A stretch of DNA of 64,000 bases from Gamaleyavirus AN24P2: sequence record OZ035810.1. One strand, given 5' to 3'. The translations under genes were made by a program, and so were the position numbers. This document shows positions 1,163 through 28,164 of the stretch, one piece after another. The notes under the pieces are model-generated. The model had not been told where the DNA came from. It saw only the letters and a program-made list of their open reading frames with translations, and searched no databases. Position 1 is the stretch's first letter. Each line of letters opens with the position of its first letter.

Positions 1163-1407
1163 AAAGAAAGATAGAGCTAGTACCTAATTGGAAGAAGTCC
1201 TGGAAATGGGCATCTGTTCAGATTAGTACGTTTGGTTTAATTCTGTTTTCTGCTGTAGATATCATCCAACCAATGGTGACGGGACTACCTCGTCACATCC
1301 TGGAAGATATTCCTCATGGTTCCAATATTGCAATCGCACTGTTTGCCTTAAACATCATGGGTAGATTGATACGATTCCGTCCAAAGGAAGATTCACATGA
1401 AAGCTAA
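1147..1407 (+). CDS. small two-TM membrane protein, holin-like
   Basis: Internal ATG (MVRRLKRK...) of ORF 1081..1407; two hydrophobic segments; overlaps upstream stop and downstream lysin start. Confidence 0.45.
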   Translation: MVRRLKRKIELVPNWKKSWKWASVQISTFGLILFSAVDIIQPMVTGLPRHILEDIPHGSNIAIALFALNIMGRLIRFRPKEDSHES

Positions 1408-2032: not shown

Positions 2033-2519
2033 AGGTTGGCCTTATCTTCTGGTGGTGGTCCTTGGGGCCACCATGTACTTTTGGGGTAATTCCAACGGAC
2101 AGTCTACTGTTCAAAAGAAGTGGGATGACCAAAAGGCTGAAGACCTAAAGACAACGCAAAAATTGCAGGATAAATACAATGCTCTCCAAAGAAACCATAG
2201 TTATGAAGTCGGGATACTCACTTCACGGTTGCAGACGGCTGAAAGTAATTACGCAAGCGAGCTTGCTCGCGTTAGCAGTGATTACGACAGCCGGATGCAA
2301 CAGTCTGAAAGACGAGCATCGGTATATAAACGTCAAGCCGAAGCCGGAACCCTTGAGTGCAGAAGTCTTGCAAGCTATGCAGCCAGACTCGACAACAGTC
2401 TTGAAGAAGGCAGACGTTTGGTTGAAGAACTCCAGGCAACTGTTAGACTCCGTGACAACCAACTAATTGAGTTGGGTAAACAAATTCAGGCTGACCGTAA
2501 ACTTTTTGAACAGGAATAA
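2013..2519 (+). CDS. i-spanin (Rz-like)
   Basis: ORF 1986..2519 opens with TTG; ATG at 2013 preceded by GGAGG; N-terminal TM segment then charged coiled-coil region. Confidence 0.55.
2203..2466 (+). CDS. o-spanin (Rz1-like lipoprotein) embedded in the Rz gene in another frame
   Basis: ORF 2179..2466 lies wholly inside the Rz ORF; signal peptide ending ...LAVITTAGC (lipobox-like Cys) and Pro-rich mature part (VKPKPEPL). Confidence 0.5.
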   Translation: MKSGYSLHGCRRLKVITQASLLALAVITTAGCNSLKDEHRYINVKPKPEPLSAEVLQAMQPDSTTVLKKADVWLKNSRQLLDSVTTN

Positions 2520-2521
2520 CT

Positions 2522-4792
2522 ATGGAACACCAAGACACTTTTAAGCCTTTACCAGACCCGGCTCAATCAGAGAAGTTAACGGACTGGAAGAAGGAACCAA
2601 GTATCCAATTACTGAAGGGTGATTTGGAATCAGCTAAACCTGCTCACGATGCAATCATGGCACAGATTCGTGAGTGGAATGATCTTATGGAAGTTAAGGG
2701 TAAGGCTAAGCCACCAAAGGTGAAGGGACGGTCACAAGTCCAACCTAGACTGGTTCGCCGTCAGGCAGAATGGAGATATGCTCCATTGTCTGAACCATTC
2801 CTCTCTTCTAACAAACTCTTTAAGGTAACTCCGGTTACTTTTGAAGATGAATTAGCTGCACGTCAAAATGAACTGGTTCTTAACTACCAATTCCGTACCC
2901 AGCTTAATAGAGTAAAGCTGGTAGATGATTACGTGCACAGTGTTGTGGATGATGGTACTGGTATTGCTCGTATTGGCTGGGAACGTAAGACTGTTAAGAT
3001 TAAAACAGAAACTCCAGTATTCCAGTTGTATCCAATTGAGAACCAGGAACAAGCAGATGTTCTTCAACAGGCTCTACAGCTTCAGGCAGAAAATCCCCGT
3101 GAGTATGACGAGACAATGCCAGAGGATATTAAGGAAGCTGTTAACTACTTTAATGAAACTGGTGAAGCTACTTATGCAATCCAGACTGGGGTTACTGAAG
3201 TAGAAGTAGAGAAAGCACTGGTTAACAGACCTACCGTTGAAATGCTTAATCCTAATAACGTAGTTATTGACCCAAGCTGTAATGGTGATTTGGATAAGGC
3301 TCTGTATGCAGTTATCTCCTTTGAGACATGCAAAGCAGACCTTATGAAAAACAAAGACCGTTATCACAACCTAGATAAAATTGACTGGGAAAGTTCTAGT
3401 CCTATTACTGACCCAGACCATGAAAGTAAAACCCCTAGCGACTTCCAGTTTAAGGATGCACTACGTAAGAAAGTAGTTGCTTATGAGTACTGGGGATTCT
3501 ATGACATTAATGATGACGGTTCACTGGAACCAATTGTTGCTACCTGGATTGGTTCTACTCTTATTCGTATGGAGAAAAACCCATTCCCTGATGGTAAGTT
3601 ACCTTTGGTAGTTGTTCCCTACATGCCCCGTAAACGTGAACTCTTCGGTGAAGCTGATGCTGAATTGTTAGGAGATAACCAAGCAATTCTCGGTGCAACT
3701 ATTCGTGGAATGATTGACCTGCTGGGTCGTAGTGCAAATGGTCAACGTGGTTATCCTAAGGGAATGTTAGATACACTTAACCGTCGTCGATATGATGATG
3801 GACAAGACTATGAATATAACCCAATGCAAGGTAACCCTAGTCAGGCCATTATGGAACATAAGTTCCCCGAGTTACCTCAATCAGCAATAGTAATGACTCA
3901 GATGCAGAACCAGGAAGCTGAATCACTAACTGGTGTTAAAGCATTTTCCGGTGGTGTAACTGGTTCAGCTTATGGTGATGTAGCTGCTGGTATTCGAGGT
4001 GCACTTGATGCAGCATCCAAACGGGAGATGGCAATTCTTCGTCGATTAGCTAAAGGTATGGCAGACATTGGTACTAAGATTTGTGCAATGAATGCTGTGT
4101 TTTTATCTGAGAAAGAAGTAGTACGTATTACCAATGAGCAGTATGTAGAAATTAATCGTGAAGACCTTAAAGGTAATTTCGACATTGAGGTTGATATTAA
4201 TACTGCTGAAATTGATAACCAGAAATCTCAGGATTTGAGCTTCATGGTTCAAACATTGGGTAATACGGTTGACCAAACTATTACATTATCTCTTGTAGCA
4301 AAGATTGCAGAGCTTAAACGTATGCCAGACCTTGCTCATGAGTTACGTAATTGGAAACCACAGCCAGATCCTATGGAAGAACAGCTTAAGCAGTTAGCAA
4401 TTCAGAAAGCACAACTAGAGAATGAAGAGTTGAAAAGTAAGATTGCACTTAATAATGCTAAGGCTAAAGAAGCTGCTTCCAGTGGTGACCTTAAAGATTT
4501 GGATTATCTGGAACAGGAATCTGGTACTAAACATGCCCGAGATATGGAAAAACAAAAAGCACAATCTCAAGGAAACCAAAACCTTCAGATAACTAAGGCA
4601 TTGACAACACCCGTTAAAGAAGGGGAAACTACCCCCAACATATCTGCTGCTGTTGGATATAATACTTTGACTAACGGGAACTCTATACCAGAACGTGATT
4701 TAGCTGCTCAACAAGACCCGGCTTACTCACTTAGTTCCCAATACTATGACCCTAGCCAAGACCCAGCATCGGCTCTTGGTATGAACCTATAA
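2522..4792 (+). CDS. portal protein
   Basis: 756 aa; size and position upstream of scaffold-like and major capsid genes match N4-type head module. Confidence 0.75.
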
Positions 4793-14351: not shown

Positions 14352-14415
14352 TTACACTGGCTTACTGTAGAGTAAGCTTCTTATATACGATATAAGTTTG
14401 AACAGGAAACATGCT

Positions 14416-17400
14416 ATGTCAACATTTGACCGTCTGGCAGGTTTCGCAGACAGCATCACTAATGCTAAGCAAGTCGATGTCTCTACTGCTACCTCTCAGA
14501 AGCAAGCTGCACAAGGGCAAAGCCCTTTCCAATTAACCCCAGAGAATGCTTACAATCTCCAAACTGGACGAGTAGGTAATTTAGGAATCGGTGCGTTCGA
14601 ACCAGGTTCCCTCCAAGCTGATTTCACTCAGGCTTCCCCATTAGAAATTCTTAATAAATATGGTAATGAGCAAGGTCTACAGATTCTTAATAGCCGAGCT
14701 AATGCTGCTGATGCTGTACGTCAGGACTTATCTAAACAACGTACTAACGCAGAAGCATTTGGTGATACTCTTTCTGGTGTTGGTCTTGGTGTTGCTAATA
14801 CCCTGGGGGGCATTGCTGCTCTTGGCACAGGTTTGGTCAATGATAATGCCGGGGCATCCATTGCTTCCGGGATGGATTGGTTGAATGAAGGTGTGCACAA
14901 TCTCCAGTCTGATGCACTGAATGTTACCCGTAAGGTTGTTCAGAATCAGAACCAGATTTCTGCTCAAAAGAACCAGAAACTTTACGAACAAGACATCAAA
15001 AATGGGGAGAGCAGCTTGGTTGCCTCCCTGTCTCGCATTGGTCGTGATGCTTTTGATTCTGTTGCTAATACACTTGATAACGGTATGGCTGCTACTGATG
15101 GGCTAAGTGAAGGTGTTGGTTCCCTCTTTACTGGTGGTCCACTTATCCGTGGTGTATCTGCACTCGGCAAAGTAATGGTAGGTGGTGATAAAGCCGTTAA
15201 GGGTATTACCTTAGCTGCTGAGTTAGGTTCTCGTCCTGCACAGGTTGCATTGTCTGCTGGTCGTGTTGCTGCACCTGCTATTGCAATTGGTGGTATGGAA
15301 GCTGGTGGTGCATACCAACAGACTGCTTCTGAAATCATGAAGATGTCACATCAAGAATTAGCAAGTAAGTCTCCTGTTTATCAACAACATATTGCTGATG
15401 GTTTATCTCCTGATGAAGCTCGTCGTCAGACTGCATCTGAAACAGGTATCATTGCTGCTGGCTTAACTGCTCCGGTTGCTGCTGCTACTGGTCCACTGGT
15501 ATCTAAATTTGAACTTAATCCACTTAAGGTAGGTTCACTGGTTGGTGCTGGTTCTAACATGCTGCGTGAAACTGTAGAAGAAGGTATCCAGTCTGGTACT
15601 AGTCAGTTTGCACAGAACAAAGCAATTCAAGGTAATGTAGATGCTAAACGTGACTTGCTTAAAGGTGTTGGTGAACAAGCAGGTCTTGGTGCACTTTACG
15701 GCTTCGGTAGTGCTGGGGTTGCTCAAGCTCCAGGTGCAACTGTTAAAGCTGTTGGTGCTACTGCTGGTCCAGCCCTTCGTACTACTTTAGCCGGTGCTTC
15801 CCTGGTTGGTAGTGCACTAGCAAAAGCTGCATCTCCTCTTACTAACATCCTGGTTCAACGTGGTGAAGAAGTTGCTAAACGAAATGAACAAGCATCCCCT
15901 GTAGCTGATGCTACGGTTAATGCTGCTGCACAGGAAGCTGCTGCTCAGGCAGAACAAGCACAAGCAACTGTACAGGAAGCAGTAGATGCAATGGATATTT
16001 CTCCGGAAGAGAAAGCTGCTGCTACCCAGTATGCTGCTGACTTAACTCAGGCAATGAAGTTTGACCCGGTAGAATTGGAACAAACTAACCCAGCAATCCG
16101 TGAAGCTGTTTCTGGTTCCACTAACCGTGTTGAAGCTATTCAGAAGATGGCTGACCTGGTTAATACTGCTGAGGATCCTAACGTTCAAATGGAAGCTGCA
16201 ATCCAGATGTATGACAATATCATGTCTATGGATAGCTTCATTAACCGTGACCCGGGTGCTCTGGCTAATCTGGAACAAGGTTCTCCTGCTGCTGCGATTG
16301 TAGACCAGTTCTCCGGTCTGATGGCTAACGTACAGAATACTCCGAAGGTACTCCGTGCATTTCGTGCCATCCATTCCATGATTCAGGAACAGGCTGAAGC
16401 GGGTAAATTGAAAGCTACTGAAGAAGCTAACCAAGCTCAGGCAAACAACATTGCTATGGCTGCTGATGTGTCTCCAGAAGTTCTGGATGTAGAATCAGTG
16501 AACATGGTTCTGAAGCACGCAAGTGAAGGTAAGATTACATTAGGGAATCGTCAGCGTGCTGCCCTGCAATCTGCTGCTGCTCTATTGCAAGGAGCACGAG
16601 AATTTGACGCTAAAGCAGAAGAACTGGGCTTACGTCCTCAAGACATTGTTAGTAAACAAATTAAAACCGACGAATCTCGTTCTAATGAAGGCCAGTACTC
16701 TGCGTTGCAACATGCTAAACGCATTCGTTCTGCGTACAACTCTGGTAACTTCGATTTGGCTTCCGCTTATCTCGACGACTTTATGAAGTTCGCCCAGCAC
16801 ATGCAGAATAAGGTCGGAGCGTTGAATGAGCATTTGATTTCTGGGAATGCGGATAAGAATAAGTCTGTCCATTATCAGGCTCTTACTCCCTCCCGTGAAT
16901 GGGTACGTAGTCGTACTGGCCTCGGTGTCAATCCGTATGATACCAAGTCTGTTAAGTTTGCCCAGCAAGTAGGACTGGAGGCCAAAACCGTAGCTGATAT
17001 TGTTAATGCACTTGCTACGGCTTACCCGGAGCTTAATGTTTCTCATGTTAAAGTTACTCCATTAGATTCACGTCTGGACAAGCCTGCTGCCCAGGTGGTT
17101 AAAGAGTTCCGTCAGGGCAATCTTGATGCTGCTCAATCCCAACAGACCAATGAACCAGTGAATCAGGTTGATGAAACTCCTGTTACAAAACAGGAACCAG
17201 TTACCCCTACTGTACAGACTAAACCCTCTGTTAGTGAAGCTGTTAAAACAGAACCTACTATTAAAGAGTCTAAACCACAGTCTGTAAAAGAACCTGAGAA
17301 CCAGTCCGAAAAGCAGGATGCTGCCATCACTAATGAGGATACCACTCAGGAAGTAGCTGAAACTAAAACGGAAATGGAAGCAGTGTTCCCTGTCTATAAC

Positions 17401-20400
17401 AATGACAAGACACCGAGCCAGTTCCTTAAAGCATTTGCTCTGCCGGAAGAACCTAAGACTCGTACCATTGGTTCTGAATCTCCTTTGACTGATGTTAAGC
17501 AAGCACTGTCTTCTGCTGCTCGCTTTGAAGCATTCACACAAAAAGAAAATAACGCTCTCACAAGTGATGTGATGAAACGTTATCAGGACTTACTGGGCTT
17601 TGGTGAAACTCTGAAGACTACTCTTTCTGACCGTCTGGCTAAGTTCCTTGCTAACAAAAATGTTGGTAAACGTTTTGCAGAAGGTACTGAAGCTAACCGT
17701 TGGGTAGGTGGTAAACTGCTGAATATCGTTGAACAAGACGGTGACACCTTTAAGTTCAATGACCAGTTGTTAGAGACTGCTGTACTTGCTGGTCTGCAAT
17801 GGCGACTAACTGCTACACAGAATGCTGCTGTTAAAGACATGAAAGACATAGCTGCTATTACTGGTGTAGAAGCATCCCTGTTACCTGAAGGTATTCTGGC
17901 TGAATTTGAGAATGCTCAGACTCTGGTTGAAGCTACTAGCTCACTGGCTCAAAAGATTGAATCCTACTGGGGTTTGAATCGTAATCCTAATGCACCACTG
18001 GGCTATACCAAGGGTATCCCAATGGCAATGGCTACAGAGATTCTGTCTTCCCTTATTGAGATGGGTGAAGTTAAAGAGTCTATGCTGGATGTGTCTGAAA
18101 TTGACCCAGCCTCCGATAAGACTGTAGGTCTGTACACCATTGAGAAGCTGGATGATAACGATGCCATTAACAATTTCCCTACTGCTATTGAGGAAGCTGT
18201 CCTCGTAGAACCAGAAGAGAAAATGTACTTTGGTGATGATATTCCTTCCGTGGCTCAAACTCAGTTACGTAATCCGGCTGTTAAGAATACCCCTGAACAG
18301 AAAGCTGCTCTTAAAGCAGAACAGGCTACTGAGTTCCGTGTACACATGCCTATGGTTAACTTCTATGAAGCATTAGGTCGTGACAACATTCTGGAACTGA
18401 TGGGTGCTGGTACGCTTAATCCTGAACTACTGAACGTAAACACTGCTAAATCACTGGAAGGTAAGAACCTGTCAGTGTCTATGGCATATGATTCCTTGTT
18501 TGGGGTAATCAATCAGGTTCAGGAACAGGAGAATGGACTGGATACTCCTATTCACTATGGTTATAACATGACCCGTGTAGGTCGTATGCAGATGCTTGGT
18601 AAGAATAACCCACAATCCAGTAAGCTGGTGCGTGAAGCAATTCTGCCAACCTTCTCTACTATTGACTTGAGTAATGAAAACAGCCAAACGTTCTCAGACT
18701 TCCAGTTAGGTCTGGCTCAGGCATTAGGCATCAAGGTACATAACATGTCCCGTGAAGCTATGTCTGAAAAGCTGACTAAAGCTCTGGAAGGTAACCTGAA
18801 ACCTGCTGTTGATATGATGGTTGAGTTTGATAAGTCTGGTCACTTACCAGTTGATGCAGTGGATATTCTGAAGACGTCTCTTGGTGGCGATAAATCCTTC
18901 GTAGCTCTTATGGCTCTTATGGAATATGCCCGTTACCTGAACAGTGATGACCGTGCCAACTTTAATACCCCACTGTACGTTGAAGCCGATGGTGTAACTA
19001 ACGGACCAATCAACGCAATGGTATTAATGACGGGTGGTAAGTTCACTTCAGACTGGGTTAAGAATACTGCTAAAGGTGGTCTGTTCTTTGGTAAAGCTGG
19101 TAAGACTATGAATGAACACCGTTCACAGGATGACAGTGTTGACTTGTATGAAGCATCTACCAACAGTCTGCAACAAGCTCTGAATGAGTTACGTACTACT
19201 TACCGTAACAACGTTCCGGTTATGAACCAGATGAATCATCTCCAAAAGTTAATGGACCTGTTCATTAAAGACTTTAACCTGAACGAAGACGGTACTCTGG
19301 ACCTGAAGCGTGGTATCGCTAAAAACCCACTGACTATTACCATCTATGGTTCCGGTGCTCGTGGTATTGCAGGCAAGATGGTTAGTGCAATTACTGATAC
19401 CATCTATGAACGCTTCAGTGACGTTCTGCAAGCTCGCGCTGCTGACCCTAGCATTTCCCCAGCTATGGCAATGTTTGGTAAAGAGGCTGCGTCTGAGACT
19501 GATGCTCAGGCTATGCTGGATACTTTCCTTACATCTATGGAAGCACTGACTGGTAATGTTCCAGTTATGCGTAAAGGTGAGCTGTCTATTCAACAAGTAG
19601 AAGGTGCTCTGACTGGTAAGTTAGACCCCCAGAAGTTTACTGTATCTGGTAATGCTCTGAAGAACCTGCAAGAGAACATGCTTCACTTGTTCGTTGAACC
19701 AATGCGTACTGGTATTCGAAATACTGTTGGTGAAGGTCTAATGCACTCTACTGAGAACTTGCAGAAGGCTACCCAGATTCAGTCTCTGGTATTGCAAGAC
19801 ATGTTCCAGCAAGCAGTACAGACTAAGCTGGCAGAAAAAGAAAAAGACCCAACATGGAAGAAGGGTGATTTCTTAACTCAGAAAGAACTGAACGAAATCC
19901 AGGAATCATTGTCTCCACTGGCTCCAATGATTGAGACTGGTTCGCAGACTTTCTACATTGCTGGTAGTGAGAATACTGACGTTGCTAACCAAGTACTGGC
20001 TACCAACTTAGATGACCGTATGCGTGTGCCAATGAGCATCTATGCTCCTTCACAGGCAGGTGTTGCAGGTATTCCATTTATGACCATTGGTACTGGCGAT
20101 GGCATGATGATGCAGACCCTTTCTACTATGAAAGGTGCTCCGAAGAATACCCTGAAAATCTTTGATGGTATGAACATTGGTATCAATGACATCACTGATG
20201 CAAGTCGTAAAGCTAACGAGGCTGTATATACTTCCTGGCAGGGGAATCCTATCAAGAATGTTTATGACTCCTTTGCTAAGTTCATGAAGAACGTAGACTT
20301 CAGCAAACTGTCCGATGAAACTAAACAGGCTATCGCTAAGTCTGCTTTGGAATATGACCAGCGTGAGGGTGCTACTGATGCCTTATTACGTGCAGGTGCT

Positions 20401-23400
20401 GAACAGATTGAGCGTAACTTGCGTAACATTGCTCTTGGTGTAGATATTCGCCATAAAGTAATGAACCAGGTACAGACTACTGTTGACCAGATGGCTGCTG
20501 TAGGTGCTCCTTATGTGAACAACGGTAAAATCTCTCTGGAAGGTCTGACTGTAGACCAGCAAGTAGCTAAGCTGAACGAATTGTTTGATGCTGAATTAAA
20601 CAAACGTCGTGATGCAGTACGTGCTGCTAAAGCAGAACCAGTGAAAGAAGTACCAGCAATTGAGCAGGTTGGTCGTGTACTGAAGTCTGGTGTACGTCTG
20701 CTGTCTAATACTGCTATCTCTAAGCTGGCTAAAGAGATGTCTCAGGAACAACAAGCAGTACTGAAAGAAGTACAGAAATCCCCTGCTGCTAAAGACTACA
20801 AGGTTGTCTATGGTACACCTGCCCAACTGGATGCTTACGCTATTGAGAAGAACATTACTCGCCCAGCACCGGAAGATATTGAAGCTGCTGAAGCAGGTAA
20901 TGCATACGGCTGGACTAACTTCGAAGATAAGACCATTTATCTAGTTACCCCTTCCTTAGAAACTCTGGTTCATGAATTGGTACATGCTTCTACTTTTGAA
21001 TCTGTACTGACTCACTATGAAGGTACTCCTAATGAAGCAGTTCAGAACATTGAAGACCTGATGAACCAGTTCCGTGCTCTGGATGTTAAGGATGAATCTC
21101 CGGCAGTACGTGAAGCGTATGCTGATGCACTTAATACCATTAATGGTCACTTGTCCAATGGATTCATTGAGCCATCAATGGCTAAAGCTGCTGCACTTAA
21201 CGAGTACATGGCTTGGGGCTTAACCAACCGTGAACTGATTAGTAAGCAGAAGAAAACCACTGCACTTAAGACTATGGTTCAGGCTGTGTATGAAGCAATC
21301 AAGCGTCTGGTATTTGGGCGTAAGAAAGCACCAGCTAATGCAGATGATATGTTCTCCGGCTTACTGTTTAACTCTGCTGTAGTAATGCGAGGACAAGCTC
21401 CTACTGCTGCTGTAGCTAAAGATACTACCCTGTTCCATAACAAAGCATACGGTGATAATACTCGTCTGGAAGAATTAGGAAAAACCTTCGATAAGTTAAT
21501 TACTGACTACATTGGTTCAGAACCAGTACAACAAGTAATTCGTAAAGGTAAGTTCTCTGATGCAGTAGTGAATGCAACTAAAGTAACCCGTGATGTTCAG
21601 GCTCATGGCTTCGCTATGAATATGCAGGAACAGCGTCTCTTTACTAACATTGTTGCTGCTCTGGCTACTGAGGCTGCTATTAACCCTGCTGCTTTGGCTC
21701 GTGCACAGGAATACTACACGCATGTTACTAAGAACCTGACTGTTGAAGCATTTATGGCTGACCCAGATAGTACTAACCCTGCTGACCGTTATTACGCTCA
21801 ACAGAAGTTCGATACCATCATGGGTGCTAACAATATTGAGTTTGATGCACAGGGACGTTCTTCCTTACTGCCTACCTTTGTTGGGCTGGCAATGGTAAGT
21901 GAAGAAGTACGTAAGGTACTGGCTGATATTCCTGTTATGAAAGCAGATAAGCAATCCGGTAATACAGTTGATGCAATGCTGACTAACATTGGTACTGCTG
22001 CAATGGCTAGTCTGAATGCTCGTGTAGCAGGTGATACCAAAGCTACTAATGTACAGGAAGGTATGGATGCACTGGCTCAAACAATCATGCAGACTAGCCT
22101 TAATGCACAGTCCTTTTATGATTCTGTTGCTACTCCTAGTGGTAATGCTATTGACCGTGCTAACCAGTATCTGGTGGACTCTATTGATGTATTGTCTACC
22201 CGTGCTTTAGAAGGTGCTCGTGAAGTTGCAGCTAATACCAAGAACCCGTTGGTTAAAGGTGCTGCTCATGCTGCACAACTGATTGCTGCTATTGCTACAG
22301 AGAAGAATGGTGAAATCGTAGCCGAAGGAGTTATGGCTGCAATGAACCAGGGTAAGGTATGGCAACCTTTCCATGACCTGGTTAATGACTTAACTGGTCG
22401 TACTAAGAGCAATGCTTCTGTGTATGATTTGATTAAGGCAGTTCGTGCACAGGTACAGGCTGACCGTCAACAATTCCGTGAACATTTGCCTACTACTATC
22501 GCATCTAAGTTCAGCCGTAAGCTGACTAATGATGAGTGGAAAGCAATGCACACTGGCATGGGTAAAACTGACTTGGCTGTCCTGCGTGACACTATGTCTT
22601 TGGCTGAAATCCGTGATTTGCTGTCGGACCAAAAGATTGTTGACCGTGAAGTGAATAAGCTGGAAGCAGATTTGCAGAAGCAAGCTGGACGTAACTGGCC
22701 TCTGATTAGTCGTAAATCTAAGCAACTGGCTCAGTTTATGATTAATGGTACAGTTGGTAATAACTTGCTGCGTAATGCTACTGCAATTTCTCGTTTACTG
22801 GGTGAACGTAAGACTACTAGTTCTATTGTAGATGTAGCTAAACTGGATAAACTGATTACCCTGTATGCACTGGAAGCAATGAGTAATACTGACCGTGAGA
22901 TGCTATCTTCACTGGCTCAAACAGAAGTTGATGGGATTGATTTTGCTACTTCTTACCTGGTTGGTCAGCGTAAAGATGAAATGGCTAAAGCTAAGTCTGA
23001 CATGCGTGCAACCCTGAACCAGTACAAAGGTTACATTCCTGGTGAGACTAAACAAGGTGTTAACCTGATTGTTGCTGAAGACAGTCAATTTGCTGATTTG
23101 ATTGAGAAGTCCTATGTGCGACTGGGTACTTATCAGGGTAGCTCTGCTAATCGTGGTCCAGCACGTAGTTACTACTTTGCACCAGTACAGGCACAGGCTC
23201 CATTCTCACAGGGTATCTTACAGAACGTTCGTAATACTGCTGGTGGTGTAGACCTTGGTACAGGCTTTACGATGGGTACAATGGTAGCTGGTCGTATCAC
23301 TGACAAGCCTTCCGTAGACCGTATCACTAAAGCACTGGCTCGTGGTGAACGTGGTAATGAACCACTGCTGCCTGTGTATGATGACAAAGGTAATGTAGTT

Positions 23401-24774
23401 GCCTATGAGCAATCTATTGACCCTAACATGCTGAAGCACATTGAGGGTGAGAACCATCTTGCTCGTGCAATTGGTGTATGGCGTGGTCGTCAGGTAGAGG
23501 AAGCTAAGGCCCAGCGTTTCAACGATATGCTGATTGAAAATCTGCATAGCATGTACGAGAACGACATTAAAATGTCTGCCTCTAATAAGTCCCAGTATGT
23601 GAACCTTCTTGGTTCTAAACTGGACCCAGTAACTGCTGATGCTCTTAAACTGATGAACACTGAAACACGTCAGAAAGCAGAAAGCCTGTTTGGACCCGGT
23701 GAACTGTGGGTTCGTCGTGATATGCTGAATGATGCACTAGGCTATCGTGCAGCTTCTGTAGGTGATGCCTGGTCTGGCAATTCTCGTTGGTCCCCAGAAA
23801 CACTGGATACCTTCAAGAAAGCTATGTTAGGTGTATTTGGCAACCGTGCTTACAAGTACGTAATGGGTGGTGAGAACCTGGTTCAGAACTTAGTTAAAGA
23901 AGCTAAGACTCTGATTGTAGTTAAGTCAGTAGTTGTACCTGCTGTTAACTTCTTAGCTAACCTTTACCAGATGGTTGGTCGTGGTGTACCTGTTAAGAAC
24001 ATTGCTAAGAGCATTCCACAGAAGACTGCTGAGATTAACCAGTACCTGAAATCTCGTCTGCGTCAGGTAGATGCAGAAGCAGAATTACGAGCAGCTACTA
24101 ATCCGAACCAGATTCGTAAACTTAAAGCTGAGATTCAGTCCATTACTGATAGTCATAAGCGTATGAGTATCTGGCCTCTATTAGAAGCTGGGGAGTTCTC
24201 TTCAATTGCAGATGCTGGTATTGGACGTGATGATATCCTGATTACTGAGGGTAAACTCCATGAATACATGGATAAGCTGGCTGATAAGTTACCTAAGTCA
24301 GTACGTACTGCTGGTCGTTATGCACTTATCACTAAGGATACTGCTTTGTTCCAGGGTATCCAGAAAACGGTTGAGTACTCTGACTTTATCGCTAAAGCAA
24401 TCATCTATGATGACTTAACTCAGCGTAAAGGTAAGACACGTGAAGAAGCACTTGGACGTGTAACTGAAGAGTTCATTAACTATGACCGTCTGCCGGGACG
24501 TTTCCGTGGCTATATGGAAAGTGTTGGTCTTATGTGGTTCTACAACTTTAAGATTCGTTCTGCAAAAGTTGCAGTGTCCATGATTCGTAATAACCCGGTC
24601 CATGCAGCAATGGCGATGTTGGCTCCAACTCCTACCATGTTTGGTAACGTTGGCTTACCTATTCAGGACAACATCTTTAGCATTGCTGCTAAGGATAGTC
24701 TGGATTACTCTTGGGGCTTTGGACAAGGGCTTCGTGCTCACAACCTGAACCCTTGGATGAACCTGGTAAACTAA
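14416..24774 (+). CDS. virion-encapsidated RNA polymerase (giant vRNAP)
   Basis: Single ORF of about 10.3 kb; track start 14398 is TTG, first ATG at 14416 preceded by AGGAAA; a protein of this size in this position is diagnostic of N4-like phages. Confidence 0.85.
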   Translation: MSTFDRLAGFADSITNAKQVDVSTATSQKQAAQGQSPFQLTPENAYNLQTGRVGNLGIGAFEPGSLQADFTQASPLEILNKYGNEQGLQILNSRANAADAVRQDLSKQRTNAEAFGDTLSGVGLGVANTLGGIAALGTGLVNDNAGASIASGMDWLNEGVHNLQSDALNVTRKVVQNQNQISAQKNQKLYEQDIKNGESSLVASLSRIGRDAFDSVANTLDNGMAATDGLSEGVGSLFTGGPLIRGVSALGKVMVGGDKAVKGITLAAELGSRPAQVALSAGRVAAPAIAIGGMEAGGAYQQTASEIMKMSHQELASKSPVYQQHIADGLSPDEARRQTASETGIIAAGLTAPVAAATGPLVSKFELNPLKVGSLVGAGSNMLRETVEEGIQSGTSQFAQNKAIQGNVDAKRDLLKGVGEQAGLGALYGFGSAGVAQAPGATVKAVGATAGPALRTTLAGASLVGSALAKAASPLTNILVQRGEEVAKRNEQASPVADATVNAAAQEAAAQAEQAQATVQEAVDAMDISPEEKAAATQYAADLTQAMKFDPVELEQTNPAIREAVSGSTNRVEAIQKMADLVNTAEDPNVQMEAAIQMYDNIMSMDSFINRDPGALANLEQGSPAAAIVDQFSGLMANVQNTPKVLRAFRAIHSMIQEQAEAGKLKATEEANQAQANNIAMAADVSPEVLDVESVNMVLKHASEGKITLGNRQRAALQSAAALLQGAREFDAKAEELGLRPQDIVSKQIKTDESRSNEGQYSALQHAKRIRSAYNSGNFDLASAYLDDFMKFAQHMQNKVGALNEHLISGNADKNKSVHYQALTPSREWVRSRTGLGVNPYDTKSVKFAQQVGLEAKTVADIVNALATAYPELNVSHVKVTPLDSRLDKPAAQVVKEFRQGNLDAAQSQQTNEPVNQVDETPVTKQEPVTPTVQTKPSVSEAVKTEPTIKESKPQSVKEPENQSEKQDAAITNEDTTQEVAETKTEMEAVFPVYNNDKTPSQFLKAFALPEEPKTRTIGSESPLTDVKQALSSAARFEAFTQKENNALTSDVMKRYQDLLGFGETLKTTLSDRLAKFLANKNVGKRFAEGTEANRWVGGKLLNIVEQDGDTFKFNDQLLETAVLAGLQWRLTATQNAAVKDMKDIAAITGVEASLLPEGILAEFENAQTLVEATSSLAQKIESYWGLNRNPNAPLGYTKGIPMAMATEILSSLIEMGEVKESMLDVSEIDPASDKTVGLYTIEKLDDNDAINNFPTAIEEAVLVEPEEKMYFGDDIPSVAQTQLRNPAVKNTPEQKAALKAEQATEFRVHMPMVNFYEALGRDNILELMGAGTLNPELLNVNTAKSLEGKNLSVSMAYDSLFGVINQVQEQENGLDTPIHYGYNMTRVGRMQMLGKNNPQSSKLVREAILPTFSTIDLSNENSQTFSDFQLGLAQALGIKVHNMSREAMSEKLTKALEGNLKPAVDMMVEFDKSGHLPVDAVDILKTSLGGDKSFVALMALMEYARYLNSDDRANFNTPLYVEADGVTNGPINAMVLMTGGKFTSDWVKNTAKGGLFFGKAGKTMNEHRSQDDSVDLYEASTNSLQQALNELRTTYRNNVPVMNQMNHLQKLMDLFIKDFNLNEDGTLDLKRGIAKNPLTITIYGSGARGIAGKMVSAITDTIYERFSDVLQARAADPSISPAMAMFGKEAASETDAQAMLDTFLTSMEALTGNVPVMRKGELSIQQVEGALTGKLDPQKFTVSGNALKNLQENMLHLFVEPMRTGIRNTVGEGLMHSTENLQKATQIQSLVLQDMFQQAVQTKLAEKEKDPTWKKGDFLTQKELNEIQESLSPLAPMIETGSQTFYIAGSENTDVANQVLATNLDDRMRVPMSIYAPSQAGVAGIPFMTIGTGDGMMMQTLSTMKGAPKNTLKIFDGMNIGINDITDASRKANEAVYTSWQGNPIKNVYDSFAKFMKNVDFSKLSDETKQAIAKSALEYDQREGATDALLRAGAEQIERNLRNIALGVDIRHKVMNQVQTTVDQMAAVGAPYVNNGKISLEGLTVDQQVAKLNELFDAELNKRRDAVRAAKAEPVKEVPAIEQVGRVLKSGVRLLSNTAISKLAKEMSQEQQAVLKEVQKSPAAKDYKVVYGTPAQLDAYAIEKNITRPAPEDIEAAEAGNAYGWTNFEDKTIYLVTPSLETLVHELVHASTFESVLTHYEGTPNEAVQNIEDLMNQFRALDVKDESPAVREAYADALNTINGHLSNGFIEPSMAKAAALNEYMAWGLTNRELISKQKKTTALKTMVQAVYEAIKRLVFGRKKAPANADDMFSGLLFNSAVVMRGQAPTAAVAKDTTLFHNKAYGDNTRLEELGKTFDKLITDYIGSEPVQQVIRKGKFSDAVVNATKVTRDVQAHGFAMNMQEQRLFTNIVAALATEAAINPAALARAQEYYTHVTKNLTVEAFMADPDSTNPADRYYAQQKFDTIMGANNIEFDAQGRSSLLPTFVGLAMVSEEVRKVLADIPVMKADKQSGNTVDAMLTNIGTAAMASLNARVAGDTKATNVQEGMDALAQTIMQTSLNAQSFYDSVATPSGNAIDRANQYLVDSIDVLSTRALEGAREVAANTKNPLVKGAAHAAQLIAAIATEKNGEIVAEGVMAAMNQGKVWQPFHDLVNDLTGRTKSNASVYDLIKAVRAQVQADRQQFREHLPTTIASKFSRKLTNDEWKAMHTGMGKTDLAVLRDTMSLAEIRDLLSDQKIVDREVNKLEADLQKQAGRNWPLISRKSKQLAQFMINGTVGNNLLRNATAISRLLGERKTTSSIVDVAKLDKLITLYALEAMSNTDREMLSSLAQTEVDGIDFATSYLVGQRKDEMAKAKSDMRATLNQYKGYIPGETKQGVNLIVAEDSQFADLIEKSYVRLGTYQGSSANRGPARSYYFAPVQAQAPFSQGILQNVRNTAGGVDLGTGFTMGTMVAGRITDKPSVDRITKALARGERGNEPLLPVYDDKGNVVAYEQSIDPNMLKHIEGENHLARAIGVWRGRQVEEAKAQRFNDMLIENLHSMYENDIKMSASNKSQYVNLLGSKLDPVTADALKLMNTETRQKAESLFGPGELWVRRDMLNDALGYRAASVGDAWSGNSRWSPETLDTFKKAMLGVFGNRAYKYVMGGENLVQNLVKEAKTLIVVKSVVVPAVNFLANLYQMVGRGVPVKNIAKSIPQKTAEINQYLKSRLRQVDAEAELRAATNPNQIRKLKAEIQSITDSHKRMSIWPLLEAGEFSSIADAGIGRDDILITEGKLHEYMDKLADKLPKSVRTAGRYALITKDTALFQGIQKTVEYSDFIAKAIIYDDLTQRKGKTREEALGRVTEEFINYDRLPGRFRGYMESVGLMWFYNFKIRSAKVAVSMIRNNPVHAAMAMLAPTPTMFGNVGLPIQDNIFSIAAKDSLDYSWGFGQGLRAHNLNPWMNLVN

Positions 24775-25167: not shown

Positions 25168-25548
25168 TTAAATGGTGCAACCACCACCGTCACAGGTGTT
25201 GTTTTCTGCAAAGGAAGCTAAAGCCTTAGCAGTTTCTTCTTTTTCATGCAGTGCCTGACGTAGCAGGTAACCCTCCAATTCCCAAATCTTATTGAATGCA
25301 TTTTCATATGCATATTGACGACCCTTCTGCTCATCATAGATAGTCGGGTCAACACAGGCAGATACACCTTCAATTTTGAAGCCGTTTTCCAGGATAATAA
25401 CGCAATGGGTTACCAGACCCAGGTTAGCCAAATCGTCTGCAGGTAGTGCAGAAGGGTTAACGAAGGCAGATTTCACTGCATCAGCACCATTGAAATAGTA
25501 GACGCTCTTAATCTTAGCTTCAATTGATTCTTTACTTACTGTTGCCAT
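25168..25548 (-). CDS. conserved phage protein, function unknown
   Basis: 126 aa ORF, C-terminal CDGGGC motif. Confidence 0.45.
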   Translation of the reverse strand: MATVSKESIEAKIKSVYYFNGADAVKSAFVNPSALPADDLANLGLVTHCVIILENGFKIEGVSACVDPTIYDEQKGRQYAYENAFNKIWELEGYLLRQALHEKEETAKALASFAENNTCDGGGCTI

Positions 25549-25717
25549 TATTAGCCTCGTAGAGTGGTTTGAGTTTGTATTTAAACATGACTGCGTTGTT
25601 ATAGGCTACGCTACCTGCAAACACCAAAGACTTACGTCCTCGGTTATCCGTTACCTCATAGGCATACGGGGTTAGGATTAAGTCAATCATATGAATCGTC
25701 CAATAAATAGTTCTCAA
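25532..25717 (-). CDS. hypothetical small protein
   Basis: 61 aa ORF overlapping upstream gene end. Confidence 0.3.
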   Translation of the reverse strand: MRTIYWTIHMIDLILTPYAYEVTDNRGRKSLVFAGSVAYNNAVMFKYKLKPLYEANNGNSK

Positions 25718-25756
25718 ATAAAAAAGTCCCCCAGAGTGGCGGCTCTGAGGGACTTA
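25718..25756 (-). terminator. rho-independent terminator closing the tRNA-like transcription unit
   Basis: agtccc...cagag/ctctg...gggact extended stem with A-run on + (U-tract on -). Confidence 0.55.
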
Positions 25757-26000
25757 GTGCTATTTACCCATAGCTGGGAGGCTTGTATGAACTTTATGAG
25801 TACCAGGTTCAGGTAAGCTTAACTGGTGTGCTACTTGGATTGATAGTCCACTCATATTGCTCAGGCTAGGATTTAAGGAGTTCCTATTCTCCAGCGAAAT
25901 TCCCGTCGAGGGGAATAACAATACATTAGCAGCCACTGGACTGTCTTACCAGTGTTGTCTTTAGAGTGCTATGCAATCAGGACTATGTTACTGCTGAATG

Positions 26001-26077
26001 GGTGTCCACTACTGGATTTGAACCAGTGACTTTCCGATTATTAGTCGGTTGCTTTCCCCGTCTAAGCTAAGTGGACT
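26001..26077 (-). tRNA. tRNA gene, isotype unresolved
   Basis: Hand fold of reverse complement: 7-bp acceptor GTCCACT/AGTGGAC, D-stem GCTT/AAGC with GG loop, T-arm ACTGG-TTCAAAT-CCAGT, 73-nt body; anticodon loop CTAATAA gives unusual anticodon AAT; CCA not fully encoded. Confidence 0.5.
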
Positions 26078-26083
26078 TATTAT

Positions 26084-26159
26084 GGTTACCCAGGCAGGAT
26101 TCGAACCTGCGTCCTAGTTGGTTTACTAGTGGGGCTTTACCACTAAGCCTACTGGGTAT
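26084..26159 (-). tRNA. tRNA-like gene with aberrant anticodon arm
   Basis: 7-bp acceptor TACCCAG/CTGGGTA, D-arm GGCT-TAGTGGTAA-AGCC, T-arm GCAGG-TTCGAAT-CCTGC, encoded CCA, 76 nt; anticodon arm folds only as CTAGT/ACTAG with a 6-nt loop. Confidence 0.4.
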
Positions 26160-26671
26160 TAATAGGGGAGTCATGCCAGGCTTTAACTGGCTCCTTCTTC
26201 GCAATCCTTACATACCCCTACATAATTATTGCGTTAAGCTTTTTTGTTTAAGTTTAAGTGAAGGCGTTCTTGCTGACTCATTGTTTGGTTTCCTGATTAC
26301 ATGGGCTTCCACCATATCATGACGAGTTTGAGTCCGTGGAGCGACTTCCTCAGTGCAGTTACCTGCCACCTGTAAACAGGCGTTCTTTGGTCCATCGTCT
26401 TCAACCATACTGTCTTAACCATATAGGGATTCAGGCAGTTCTGGCGGTAATCAGGAAATCTGGTTTGAGATGGGAGTCCGAGTCCTGTACAGCCTTACCG
26501 TCTCCACATTGGCAGCGTATCTAGAATAGCACTTCCGGGTACGGATTTAACTGTTACATCTCAAATGTGGTAGGGGCGTCCAGAGGTTTCATCTGATACT
26601 TACGCCGTCGTATGGTTACGACTTACCCCCATAATTCTTACAATTCAGAGTAGCACTGTTGCAGTCGTCAC

Positions 26672-26752
26672 TGCCCATAGGTAAGGATTCGAACCTTACA
26701 ATACCGTTAGTTTGCAACGTCGCTGTACCATTTCGCGTTCTATGCAATGCTA
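26672..26752 (-). tRNA. degenerate tRNA-like element
   Basis: Canonical T-arm TAAGG-TTCGAAT-CCTTA, but I could not pair an acceptor stem or find a U33/R37 anticodon loop. Confidence 0.25.
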
Positions 26753-26757
26753 CTTTG

Positions 26758-26824
26758 AATTGGTTCCGGCGTCTGGACTCGAACCAGAACACTCACGTTT
26801 GTGCACAACGCTAGTACCTACACC
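26758..26824 (-). tRNA. truncated tRNA-like element
   Basis: Acceptor TCCGGTG/CGCCGGA, T-arm TCTGG-TTCGAGT-CCAGA and encoded CCA, but only about 67 nt with no room for a D-arm; hairpin loop GTGCACA. Confidence 0.3.
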
Positions 26825-27720
26825 GGAATTAATTGCCAGGGATTCCACCTGGCTCCATCTGTTTTTATAGTCACTCAGATATCGTCTGGACTTTAATAGT
26901 ACAACCTATCAAAGAGTACACTAAGCACAGGTAGCTACCCTGCCGTCTTCTCTATCTACACCGGCTACAGTATAAACCTCCGCACGTTAGCCTAATGTAC
27001 TCATTGATAGGATGTCATAATAGGGGAGGGAGGACGAGTCCCTCTTTACCCTATGGTTTAGTTTACGTGTAAGACCTAACATCTCGATGCTGGATGAATA
27101 GCGTAATGAACTATCCGACATTATTGGTTAATATTGTGCTCAACATGAGCGTTAGTTGATAAGGGATCTGAAGCCTTATCCCGAAGATACTAACCTTTGG
27201 GGTATAGCCTAAGATTCAGAAATGGCCCCTATAGGGAGAGGCCATTGATTAACCCGAATGTTGCTTTACATTTTCTGAGATAACCCATTCTTAAAATAGT
27301 CTGACTGACGGATGGGAGCCAACCCTAGCGTCAGTGCCATACGGCAAAGATTAAGTTAAGAAAGGTTATGATAGGAGTTCCTATCTCAAAGGATTCTAAC
27401 AGAACCCTTCACGATATTAACTACCCACTATGGAATAATTTATTTTTTACAACAGGCACCGCGCCCAAGAAAAAGCTAATTTTCCACTTAGTTTAGATTG
27501 AACCAATGGACTGGGGAGAGTATTCCAATCCACTGGTTCGGTTGTTGTTGTTACTCTGGCGGCTTGTCACCACCTTGTTTACCACTGCATTTCCACAGGA
27601 TAATGACAGTGATGATAAAAGCTATGTATGGAGCCGACACGTCTATAATCCTGACCAGTAGTAGCATCAGGACTATAAACACTACCACACCTAGCAGCAG
27701 CTTCTGAGCCACCTACCAGA

Positions 27721-28164
27721 TTAACTACGTTTGAGGCCAGCGAACAGTGAAGGCTTAGCAGCAGGTTTCTCTGCTGGTTCTTCAGCCTTAACTTCTTCCT
27801 GCACAATTTCTTCTTGTGCTTCTGGTTCAGTCACTGCTTCTTCTTCAGGTTCCGACGTAGAACTCTCGTTCACTCCACCAGTAGAGGTCTGGGTTTCTTC
27901 TACCTTTACCTCTTCAACTACATCTTCCGGCTCTGGTTCTACCGGACGGTGTTTAGCTTCCTGAGGGTTCTTACGAGAACGACGTGTCTTCTTCTCTACC
28001 AAGGGTGGAGTATCATCGTTATGACTTACCTCTTCATTAATACCAACGGAGGCTGTACCATCTGCATTGATGACAATACTAACATCACCAGCAAGATTGA
28101 TTTGATCATCGACATAAGCTTGTACAGCAGCTTCTACTTCGGACTGGTTCAAAATGATTTGCAT
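27721..28164 (-). CDS. hypothetical protein with acidic/basic C-terminal tail
   Basis: 147 aa ORF; C-terminal half rich in E/P/K. Confidence 0.45.
   Translation of the reverse strand: MQIILNQSEVEAAVQAYVDDQINLAGDVSIVINADGTASVGINEEVSHNDDTPPLVEKKTRRSRKNPQEAKHRPVEPEPEDVVEEVKVEETQTSTGGVNESSTSEPEEEAVTEPEAQEEIVQEEVKAEEPAEKPAAKPSLFAGLKRS

What the first reader, a model, noticed from the sequence alone, without database searches (positions are those of the whole stretch)
26672..26824. Two degenerate tRNA-like elements: intact T-arm and 3' end but missing or unpaired 5' half
The element at 26758-26824 has a 7-bp acceptor stem, T-arm TCTGG-TTCGAGT-CCAGA and encoded CCA but is only about 67 nt, with no room for a D-arm. 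The element at 26672-26752 has a perfect T-arm but no acceptor pairing I could find. These may be tRNA fragments or tRNA-like regulatory RNAs.
Basis: seen in the sequence. Interest (0 to 1): 0.5.

Follow-up and report, generated by a model that had tools for sequence, protein, structure and literature searches.

The report
Conserved tRNA-shaped RNAs in N4-like phage
The two flagged elements are real, structurally conserved tRNA look-alike genes (one with no D-arm, one with its ends sealed by a helix) in an N4-like phage's tRNA gene array; standard tRNA finders miss them and their job is unknown.

Summary
The window is a Gamaleyavirus (N4-like phage), and the elements lie in the gene-free gap between gp47 and gp48.

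E1 (26827-26761) is 67 nt: a 7-bp acceptor, a 9-nt linker in place of the D-arm, a 5-bp stem with loop GUGCACA, a T-arm and an encoded ACCA. E2 (26754-26649) is 106 nt: a cloverleaf-like core sealed by a 10-bp helix between its flanks plus an extra 3' hairpin, with no free CCA end.

Neither is a decaying remnant. E1 occurs in N4 itself (unannotated), KP8, cp20 and the myovirus 05F01. It is 98.9% paired, with 5 pairs changed on both sides. E2 is 98.5% paired, with 6 such pairs. The block holding E1 is about 90% identical to N4, against 68-75% for the neighbouring genes.

Decoding is unlikely. Most E1 copies have a 6-nt loop, E2 has a 5-nt loop, and 05F01 also carries a normal tRNA-Cys(GCA).

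My best reading is stable tRNA-mimic small RNAs cut out by the host's tRNA-processing enzymes. That reading, and any function, are inferred; I found no expression data. Two database records label E1 "tRNA-Undet" or "tRNA-OTHER".

The parts
26761..26827 (-). E1: 67-nt tRNA-like gene without a D-arm. Acceptor 5' strand 26827-26821; 9-nt linker UAGGUACUA 26820-26812; stem-loop 26811-26795 (loop GUGCACA 26806-26800); variable region 26794-26789; T-arm 26788-26772; acceptor 3' strand 26771-26765; ACCA 26764-26761.
   Evidence: Sequence. 11 distinct homologs, 98.9% of cells paired, 5 pairs changed on both sides, 0 of 500 shuffles reach the score. Covariance model R1 scores members 84-98 bits and the next-best hits, canonical tRNAs, 36 bits or less.
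26649..26754 (-). E2: 106-nt closed tRNA-shaped RNA. Outer helix 26754-26745 with 26658-26649; acceptor-like helix 26744-26740 with 26680-26676; D stem-loop 26737-26721; anticodon-like arm 26719-26705 (5-nt loop CAAAC); T-arm 26699-26681; extra 3' hairpin 26674-26661.
   Evidence: Minimum-energy fold with flanks -35.4 kcal/mol, z -2.3. 8 distinct homologs, 98.5% paired, 6 pairs changed on both sides in 5 of 6 helices, 0 of 500 shuffles. Model R2 scores members 108-128 bits and nothing else above 20.
26833..26892 (-). Two-hairpin RNA module ending 5 nt upstream of E1. It is context, not part of E1: cp20 and 05F01 have E1 without it.
   Evidence: Model R3 hit at 78.5 bits. Its 16-nt core is in more than 120 viral contigs. 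97.8% paired, 6 pairs changed on both sides.
26568..26630 (-). E4: a third non-canonical unit of about 63 nt. Acceptor GGGGGUA/CGCCCCU, discriminator A, CCA; arm GUCGU-AACCAU-ACGAC; T-like hairpin; no D-arm.
   Evidence: Sequence parse plus conservation in 14 related loci, with one compensated acceptor pair in L021. No formal pair count was run.
26083..26158 (-). Called tRNA of undetermined identity with a 6-nt anticodon loop; same array.
   Evidence: ARAGORN and Rfam (42.8 bits).
26001..26076 (-). Called tRNA-Ile(AAU); the last tRNA of the array.
   Evidence: ARAGORN and Rfam (65.6 bits).
25724..25755 (-). Strong intrinsic-terminator-like hairpin (13-bp stem followed by a T-run) that closes the RNA-gene array before gp48.

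Best explanation
E1 and E2 are genes for small, stable, non-decoding tRNA mimics. They belong to an array of tRNA and tRNA-derived RNA genes in the gp47-gp48 gap of N4-like phages.

Shown: both adopt conserved folds that keep the tRNA 'top half' (acceptor or acceptor-like helix stacked on a canonical T-arm, with a GG-containing loop that could dock on the T-loop). The 'bottom half' is reduced or altered. E1 has no D-stem and a GUGCAC(A) loop. E2 has a 5-nt or aberrant loop and sealed ends.

Inferred: the array is transcribed as one unit on the minus strand, ending at the 25755-25724 terminator. Host tRNA-processing enzymes then excise the units. RNase P would cut 5' of E1 (U at -1 is invariant, a 12-bp acceptor/T-arm stack, ACCA encoded), and 3' trimming would stop at CCA. 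E2's ends would be trimmed back to its closing helix, leaving an exonuclease-resistant RNA that cannot be aminoacylated.

The mature RNAs would act by being recognised as tRNA by a host factor, without taking part in decoding. My most likely guess is that they titrate or divert a tRNA-binding enzyme, such as a tRNA-targeting defence nuclease or a toxin that modifies the acceptor end. That last step is speculation.
For: - Compensatory changes hold every testable helix: E1 98.9% paired against 21-47% for slid partners; E2 98.5% against 22-55%.
- E1 plus its upstream block is 89.9% identical between the window and N4, against 68-75% for gp44-49.
- E1 is found in five lineages: Enquatrovirus N4, Gamaleyavirus, Kaypoctavirus KP8, Efbeekayvirus cp20 and the Stephanstirmvirinae myovirus 05F01. 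In the last two it sits inside ordinary tRNA arrays.
- The unpaired linker, T-loop, first five acceptor pairs and ACCA are invariant or nearly so, while stems covary. U(-1) is invariant in 16 of 16.
- Against decoding: 7 of 11 distinct E1 sequences, N4 included, have a 6-nt loop, and the stem still covaries within that class (GUGUC/GGCAU versus GCGUC/GGCGU). E2's loop is 5 nt and it has no free 3' end. 05F01 has a canonical tRNA-Cys(GCA) as well as E1.
- Other uncalled units in relatives keep the acceptor, T-arm and ACCA around quite different bodies, and N4 has an independent closed unit (z -6.8).
Against: - I found no expression, processing or binding data.
- E1 is absent or replaced in several Gamaleyaviruses (pSb-1, ZQ2, PW8, VTCCBPA_322), and E2 matches only 17 phage records (12 of them nearly full length), so neither is essential.
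- The sequence sets are small and closely related (11 and 8 distinct sequences), so the shuffle statistics overstate significance.
- High identity between N4 and the window could partly reflect recent horizontal exchange of the block rather than selection.
- The window's own E1 has a 7-nt loop with U33, GCA and A38, so decoding is not excluded for this copy.
- The decoy idea has no direct support.
Confidence: 0.5

Rival explanations
1. E1 is a working, decoding tRNA that lacks a D-arm (reading UGY with anticodon GCA, or carrying another identity). E2 is unrelated.
For: - In the window, IME11, 24-32N, KP8, cp20 and 05F01 the loop is 7 nt with U33, GCA and A38.
- E1 sits among tRNA genes with tRNA-like spacing and an encoded CCA.
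- The loop sequence is conserved while the stem beneath it covaries.
- Two records annotate it as a tRNA of undetermined type; the SPSP record's note credits tRNAscan-SE.
Against: - Most copies, N4 included, have a 6-nt loop yet remain under structural constraint.
- The loop has G32 and C37, and the discriminator is A73; from my own knowledge of tRNA identity rules, E. coli CysRS needs U73.
- 05F01 has a canonical tRNA-Cys(GCA) too.
- ARAGORN's mitochondrial modes, which allow missing arms, do not call it.
- As far as I know, no D-arm-less tRNA is known to work with bacterial translation machinery.
Confidence: 0.12
2. The elements act in cis as RNA-processing punctuation. Their tRNA-like top halves recruit RNase P (and the closing helices recruit other RNases) to cut the long transcript and define or stabilise the ends of neighbouring RNAs. 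The excised pieces themselves have no function.
For: - E1 begins 5 nt after a conserved hairpin module, and a related hairpin precedes the odd tRNA at 26158.
- U(-1) and ACCA are conserved.
- Units are packed 6-20 nt apart.
- From my own knowledge, phage small RNAs matured by RNase P are known: C4 of P1/P7 and CI of P4.
Against: - Any tRNA would serve as punctuation. This does not explain the invariant linker and the GUGCAC loop.
- It does not explain E1's conservation in cp20 and 05F01, where it is flanked only by ordinary tRNAs.
- It does not explain E2's conserved internal cloverleaf.
Confidence: 0.15
3. They are decaying tRNA pseudogenes or fragments with no function.
For: - Presence/absence polymorphism among close relatives, and truncated E2 5' stubs in 24-32N and L031.
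- tRNA finders fail on them.
Against: - 98-99% of cells are paired, with 5 and 6 doubly compensated pairs.
- The block is about 90% identical to N4, against 68-75% for adjacent genes.
- Both families are sharply separated from other sequences by covariance-model score, with no intermediates.
Confidence: 0.06
4. E2 is a DNA-level element: a small mobile cassette whose 'outer helix' is really a pair of terminal inverted repeats, or a recombination or homing target.
For: - Patchy distribution, including a different genus (TR2, Triduovirus).
- 10-bp inverted termini whose paired deletion in TR2 would also fit co-evolving inverted repeats.
- An HNH endonuclease gene is annotated under the match to this gap in ZQ2.
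Against: - Compensated changes also occur in the internal helices (acceptor-like, T-stem, 3' hairpin), which inverted repeats do not explain.
- No associated transposase.
- E2 always sits at the same junction after a unit ending ...ACCAAUUCAA.
Confidence: 0.04

Closest known systems
Animal mitochondrial tRNA-Ser(AGY) and other D-arm-lacking mitochondrial tRNAs
   Same: A normal acceptor, anticodon-type arm and T-arm, with the D-arm replaced by a short unpaired linker (9 nt in E1).
   Different: E1 is in phages of enterobacteria. It keeps a canonical T-loop (UUCGAGU) and a GG in the linker, and encodes ACCA. Most copies have a 6-nt loop. ARAGORN's mitochondrial modes do not call it. Decoding and charging are untested.
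tRNA-like domain of tmRNA (SsrA)
   Same: Acceptor plus T-arm plus CCA, with a D-loop that has no stem, and a helix in place of a decoding anticodon arm.
   Different: No G3:U70 pair, no mRNA/tag domain and no pseudoknots inside E1. ARAGORN and Rfam give no tmRNA call in the window. No similarity to E. coli ssrA by BLAST.
YrlA (bacterial Y-RNA-like tRNA mimic, Rfam RF02553)
   Same: Like E2, a tRNA-shaped RNA with D/T elbow elements and no free CCA end.
   Different: In the YrlA consensus the T-arm comes before the D-arm, i.e. the order is permuted (Rfam consensus line shown). E2 keeps the normal D, anticodon, T order and exits through an extended acceptor. There is no RF02553 hit on E2.
RNase P-matured phage and cell small RNAs with tRNA-like ends (C4 RNA of P1/P7, CI RNA of P4, T4 rnaC/rnaD, mammalian mascRNA) - cited from my own knowledge
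   Same: Small non-decoding RNAs that borrow the acceptor/T-arm shape and are excised by tRNA-processing enzymes. This is the mechanism I propose for E1.
   Different: No sequence relationship. Processing of E1 and E2 is inferred, not shown. E1 is far closer to a full tRNA than C4 or CI RNA are.
Canonical phage tRNA genes used against tRNA-cleaving defences (T5 tRNA-Tyr versus retron, 10.1101/2023.03.15.532788; T6 versus Septu, PMC13096335)
   Same: Located in phage tRNA arrays. A plausible selective setting for variant tRNA-shaped RNAs.
   Different: Those are full, decoding tRNAs that replace cleaved host tRNAs. E1 and E2 fail the tRNA model and probably cannot decode.

Membership tests
Canonical tRNA (Rfam RF00005) | Scores at or above the family's gathering threshold (29 bits) | tested here: not met
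   E1: no hit even at E<=10. E2 core: 11.9 bits. The two neighbouring tRNAs score 65.6 and 42.8 bits.
Canonical tRNA (Rfam RF00005) | Four-arm cloverleaf including a D stem-loop | tested here: not met
   E1 has 9 unpaired nt where the D-arm should be. The only possible mini-stem (UAG/CUA) is broken in 05F01. ARAGORN's alternative cloverleaf is not conserved. E2 does have a 3-bp D-stem.
Canonical tRNA (Rfam RF00005) | 7-nt anticodon loop with U33 | tested here: inconclusive
   E1 has 7 nt (GUGCACA) in the window and 3 other distinct sequences, and 6 nt in the other 7 of 11, N4 included. E2 has 5 nt (CAAAC), or a 3-bp stem with loop UAGCCAU.
Canonical tRNA (Rfam RF00005) | Free single-stranded 3' NCCA end | tested here: inconclusive
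   E1: ACCA is encoded and invariant. E2: not met, because its 3' side continues into a hairpin and a closing helix.
D-arm-lacking tRNA (mitochondrial tRNA-Ser(AGY) type) | No D-stem, with acceptor, anticodon arm and T-arm otherwise intact | tested here: met
   E1 structure, supported by covariation in the anticodon-type stem and the T-stem.
D-arm-lacking tRNA (mitochondrial tRNA-Ser(AGY) type) | Is aminoacylated and decodes | not testable with these tools
   Indirect evidence argues against it: 6-nt loops and a co-resident canonical tRNA-Cys(GCA) in 05F01.
tmRNA / tmRNA tRNA-like domain | G3:U70 alanine identity pair, tag reading frame, detection by a tmRNA finder | tested here: not met
   E1 has C3:G70. 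ARAGORN finds no tmRNA. Rfam gives no tmRNA hit in the window.
YrlA (RF02553) | Permuted tRNA-like module (T-arm before D-arm) and a match to the family model | tested here: not met
   E2 has the order D, anticodon-like, T. The only YrlA hit (17.3 bits) lies across the two true tRNAs, not on E2.
tRNA pseudogene / fragment | No selective constraint on pairing | tested here: not met
   98.9% and 98.5% paired, with 5 and 6 doubly compensated pairs; 0 of 500 shuffles reach the observed score.
RNase P substrate (tRNA-like small RNA) | Cleaved by RNase P at the 5' end of the acceptor | not testable with these tools
   Consistent features only: a 7+5-bp acceptor/T stack, a canonical T-loop, invariant U(-1) and an encoded ACCA.

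The most novel reading that the evidence does not exclude
N4-like phages, including the model phage N4, carry an operon of tRNA 'top-half' mimics: a D-arm-less E1, the closed E2, E4, and longer units in relatives. These would be RNA-based counter-defence decoys or sponges for host factors that attack or sense tRNAs. Alternatively, E1 would be the first D-arm-less tRNA shown to function with bacterial translation machinery.
Probability: 0.15. Interest if true: 0.8.

Novelty: new variant of a known kind. Interest (0 to 1): 0.58.

Why it matters
Phage tRNA genes have recently been recognised as weapons against tRNA-cleaving bacterial immunity. Non-canonical tRNA-shaped RNAs are invisible to standard annotation: the N4 reference record lists nothing in this gap, although ARAGORN finds four canonical tRNAs there and the gap also holds E1 and a closed unit.

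Here there are at least two discrete, structurally constrained families. One has an architecture (no D-arm, canonical T-loop, encoded CCA) that I know otherwise only from mitochondria. They sit in a genetically tractable E. coli phage system. If they are mimics that engage host tRNA-binding factors, they would add an RNA class to the phage-host conflict over tRNAs.

Even if they are not, they show that tRNA counts for N4-like phages are incomplete, and that their 'intergenic' gaps are packed with RNA genes.

Tried and rejected
1. ARAGORN default, intron, -mt and -mtmam modes call neither element. -ps90 draws a 75-nt Cys(GCA) cloverleaf in another register, which I rejected by comparative pairing.
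2. The minimum-energy fold of E1 extends the anticodon helix (positions 12-15 with 35-38). Rejected: that pairing is broken in PhAPEC5, L028 and cp20.
3. A mini D-stem UAG/CUA in E1 is unsupported; it is invariant except in 05F01, where it breaks.
4. E1 as the array's only Cys tRNA: rejected, because 05F01 has a canonical tRNA-Cys(GCA).
5. E1's origin: full-length tRNAs sharing its acceptor end and T-arm are nearly all tRNA-Gln, but pairwise similarity to any canonical tRNA is weak. Left open.
6. tmRNA link: a weak tmRNA hit and a tag-like frame occur in phage DS8 near the shared upstream module. There is no tmRNA call anywhere and no similarity to E. coli ssrA. Not applicable to E1 or E2.
7. 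The upstream module as an HK022 put-type antiterminator: the motif search and covariance model find nothing at HK022's put sites. Unsupported.
8. N4's closed unit as an E2 homolog: no. It is analogous only.
9. Overlapping small ORFs: 1-2-nt indels in the loops would break their frames.
10. Wider family search in viral, genome and metagenome collections: only near-identical E1 copies and no new lineages.
11. Literature searches for N4-like tRNA-like RNAs, transcript maps or tRNA-mimic decoys found nothing specific.

Full report
**Identity of the window and location.** The stretch 25700-27800 is 100% identical to Gamaleyavirus AN24P2 and 80-96% identical to many G7C-like, N4-like Escherichia phages. 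The 3,458-aa ORF at 14398-24774 (+) matches the position and size of the virion RNA polymerase annotated in relatives. The flagged elements lie on the minus strand. They sit in a stretch of about 1.9 kb without long ORFs, between homologs of N4 gp48 (25168-25548) and gp47 (27721-28164). Default ARAGORN and Rfam at gathering threshold call only two tRNAs there: tRNA-Ile(AAU) at 26001-26076 and an odd tRNA with a 6-nt anticodon loop at 26083-26158.

**Checking the observation.** Read on the minus strand, E1 is UCCGGUG-UAGGUACUA-GCGUU-GUGCACA-AACGU-GAGUGU-UCUGG-UUCGAGU-CCAGA-CGCCGGA-ACCA. This runs from 26827 to 26761 and is 67 nt.

With its flanks, E2 folds into these parts:
- a 10-bp closing helix (AGUAGCAUUG/CAGUGCUACU);
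- a 5-bp acceptor-like helix;
- a 3-bp D-stem with an 11-nt loop containing GG;
- a 5-bp arm with a 5-nt loop;
- a 6-bp T-arm;
- an extra 3' hairpin (GCAGU-GACG-ACUGC).

The T-loop motif GGTTCRANTCC occurs four times in 64 kb, all on the minus strand within 26014-26785, against 0.19 expected by chance.

**Are they canonical tRNAs that were misparsed?** No. The Rfam tRNA model does not report E1 even at E<=10, and gives the E2 core 11.9 bits against a threshold of 29. ARAGORN's intron and mitochondrial modes call neither. At a relaxed threshold ARAGORN draws a 75-nt Cys(GCA) cloverleaf at 26839-26765, borrowing half of an upstream hairpin as its acceptor. That acceptor pairs 5 of 7 at best. Its distance from the rest of the fold shifts with indels among relatives. 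It falls to 1-3 of 7 in cp20 and 05F01, where the upstream sequence is the end of a tRNA-Tyr. The D-arm-less acceptor pairs 7 of 7 in 14 of 16 sequences and 6 of 7 (one C.A) in the other two.

**E1 is a conserved family.** I found exact or near-exact E1 copies in:
- every Gamaleyavirus locus fetched except ST4 and the three fetched through E2 (F22, E20 and VTCC322; VTCC322 has a different unit in the E1 slot);
- phage N4 itself, where the RefSeq record annotates nothing in the 1.5-kb gp47-gp48 gap although ARAGORN finds tRNAs Asn, Ser, Thr and Pro there;
- Klebsiella phage KP8 (Kaypoctavirus);
- Klebsiella phage cp20 (Efbeekayvirus);
- the 147-kb myovirus 05F01 (Stephanstirmvirinae).

In cp20 and 05F01, E1 sits between ordinary tRNA genes. 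Eleven distinct sequences give 98.9% standard pairs, against 21-47% when partners are slid by 1-3 columns. Five pairs change on both sides, and no shuffle reaches the observed score. The anticodon-type stem occurs as GCGUU/AACGU, GUGUC/GGCAU, GCGUC/GGCGU and ACCCU/AGGGU. The T-stem occurs as UCUGG/CCAGA, GUUGG/CCAAC and CCUGG/CCAGG.

The unpaired parts are invariant or nearly so: the linker UAGGUACUA, the T-loop, GUGCAC in the loop, and ACCA. U(-1) is invariant too. A covariance model separates members (84-98 bits) from the best canonical tRNAs (36 bits or less). Scans of viral, genome and metagenome collections added copies but no new lineage.

**E2 is also a conserved family.** It matches 17 phage records, 12 of them over 80% or more of the query, including Salmonella phage TR2 of a different genus. 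Eight distinct sequences give 98.5% pairing, with six pairs changed on both sides spread over five of the six helices. TR2 has lost one base pair from both strands of the closing helix. Model R2 scores members at 108-128 bits and nothing else above 20.

**Conservation compared with the surroundings.** Between the window and N4, gp44-46 are 67.9% identical, gp47 72%, gp48 70% and gp49 75%. The 168-nt block holding E1 and its upstream module is 89.9% identical. Indels of 1-2 nt in the loops rule out the overlapping small ORFs as the cause.

**What they probably are not.**

Decoding tRNAs are unlikely:
- 7 of 11 distinct E1 sequences, N4 included, have a 6-nt loop, and the stem still covaries within that class.
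- The loop has G32 and C37.
- The discriminator is A73, whereas E. coli CysRS identity needs U73 (my own knowledge).
- 05F01 carries a canonical tRNA-Cys(GCA) in the same array.
- E2 has a 5-nt loop and no free 3' end.

Other families also fail:
- Not tmRNA: there is no G3:U70, no tag frame and no tmRNA call.
- E2 is not YrlA: the domain order is not permuted and there is no model hit.

**The wider pattern.** The gap is an array of tRNA-shaped units. In the window the minus-strand order is:
- two-hairpin module (26892-26833);
- E1;
- E2;
- a third D-arm-less unit, E4 (26630-26568, conserved, with one compensated acceptor pair);
- a 98-nt block that is 91% identical to N4;
- a hairpin;
- the odd tRNA;
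- tRNA-Ile;
- a strong terminator (25755-25724).

Relatives carry other uncalled units of about 125 nt that keep the acceptor, T-arm and ACCA around quite different bodies. N4 has an independent closed unit with a closing stem of about 22 bp (z -6.8). What is kept across all of them is the tRNA top half.

**Mechanism (inferred).** The conserved features are a 12-bp acceptor/T-arm stack, a canonical T-loop with a GG partner, U(-1) and an encoded RCCA. From general knowledge, these are the features read by RNase P, 3'-end trimming enzymes, the CCA-adding enzyme and other factors that recognise the top half of tRNA. I therefore propose that the array is transcribed as one unit and processed like a tRNA operon. 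This would yield a 67-nt E1 ending in CCA and a 106-nt E2 whose closing helix blocks exonucleases and prevents aminoacylation. Both would then act as tRNA mimics.

What they mimic tRNA for is unknown. Phage tRNAs counter tRNA-cleaving defences (10.1101/2023.03.15.532788; PMC13096335), so a decoy or sponge role is my leading guess, at low confidence. A purely cis-acting role as processing punctuation is the main rival.

**Novelty.** Two database records already tag E1 at exactly these bounds: 'tRNA-Undet' in vB_Eco_SPSP (per that record's note, from tRNAscan-SE) and 'tRNA-OTHER' in KP8. So its existence has been glimpsed. I found no description of the family, its missing D-arm, E2, or any function in the searchable literature. 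I class it as a new variant of a known kind (phage tRNA-like small RNAs).

Noticed in passing
window 26833-26892 (-): A 60-nt two-hairpin RNA module ends 5 nt upstream of E1 (core CCAGACGAUAUCUGAG...GGUGGAAnCC). It occurs in more than 120 viral contigs, including unrelated phages (9NA, DS8, SopranoGao, Kp4865-1), and in 15 of 5,426 E. coli genomes. It is 97.8% paired with 6 doubly compensated pairs and has no Rfam family. In some contigs a terminator, a gene start or tRNA-Arg(UCU) follows it. A test against HK022 put RNAs was negative.
   Followed up: partly
L038 (Shigella phage DS8, NC_054650) 811-1460 (+): An ~840-nt gene-free gap looks like one large structured RNA with tmRNA-like traits. 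It has a tag-like frame GCA AAC GAU GAU GUU GUU CUG AUG GCG GCG UAA (ANDDVVLMAA*), weak Rfam tmRNA hits (27.3 bits, E 0.017), repeated CACAACAGG...CCGUUGUGG stems, a T-arm-like hairpin near the 3' end, and complementary ends UUGUGGUG/CACCACAA. ARAGORN calls no tmRNA.
   Followed up: partly
window 26568-26630 (-): E4, another D-arm-less tRNA-shaped unit (GGGGGUA...CGCCCCU-A-CCA). It is conserved in 14 related loci, its arm loop is 6 or 4 nt, and one acceptor pair is compensated in L021.
   Followed up: partly
window 26083-26158 (-) and hairpin 26175-26194 (-): A called tRNA (42.8 bits) with a 6-nt anticodon loop (AAACCA) and undetermined identity, conserved in at least 6 relatives. It is preceded by a hairpin, GGAGCCAG-UUAAAGC-CUGGC, that resembles the second hairpin of the module upstream of E1.
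   Followed up: partly
window 26001-26076 (-): tRNA-Ile with anticodon AAU (A34), which I believe is unusual for bacteria and their phages. It is conserved across most Gamaleyaviruses.
   Followed up: no
window 26466-26563 (-) and 25926-25995 (-): Two further noncoding blocks are 90.9% and 84.3% identical to N4, well above the 68-75% of the flanking genes. Neither has an Rfam match or an assigned structure.
   Followed up: no
L036 (phage N4, NC_008720 31600-35600) 514-2032: The N4 RefSeq record annotates nothing between gp47 and gp48. ARAGORN finds tRNA-Asn, -Ser, -Thr and -Pro there. The gap also holds the module, E1 (1270-1335) and a closed tRNA-like unit (1336-1452, z -6.8).
   Followed up: yes
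window ~27000-27050 (-): The hairpin GAGGGACUCGUCCUCCCUC followed by UAUUAU lies directly before a tRNA-Ala(CGC)-like unit in PD205. The same unit is called in St11Ph5 and Bp4. The window keeps the hairpin and the downstream flank but has cleanly lost that unit.
   Followed up: no
window 26209-26222 (-): The motif UGUAGGGGUAUGUA is shared with the DS8 gap, where it is tandemly repeated. N4 has a similar AUAGGGGUAUGUUAGGG.
   Followed up: no
L008 (phage Bas96, PQ850623) 1061-3452: This record annotates about a dozen tiny hypothetical CDSs (90-213 nt) across the homologous RNA-gene array. They are probably gene-caller artefacts over structured RNA.
   Followed up: no
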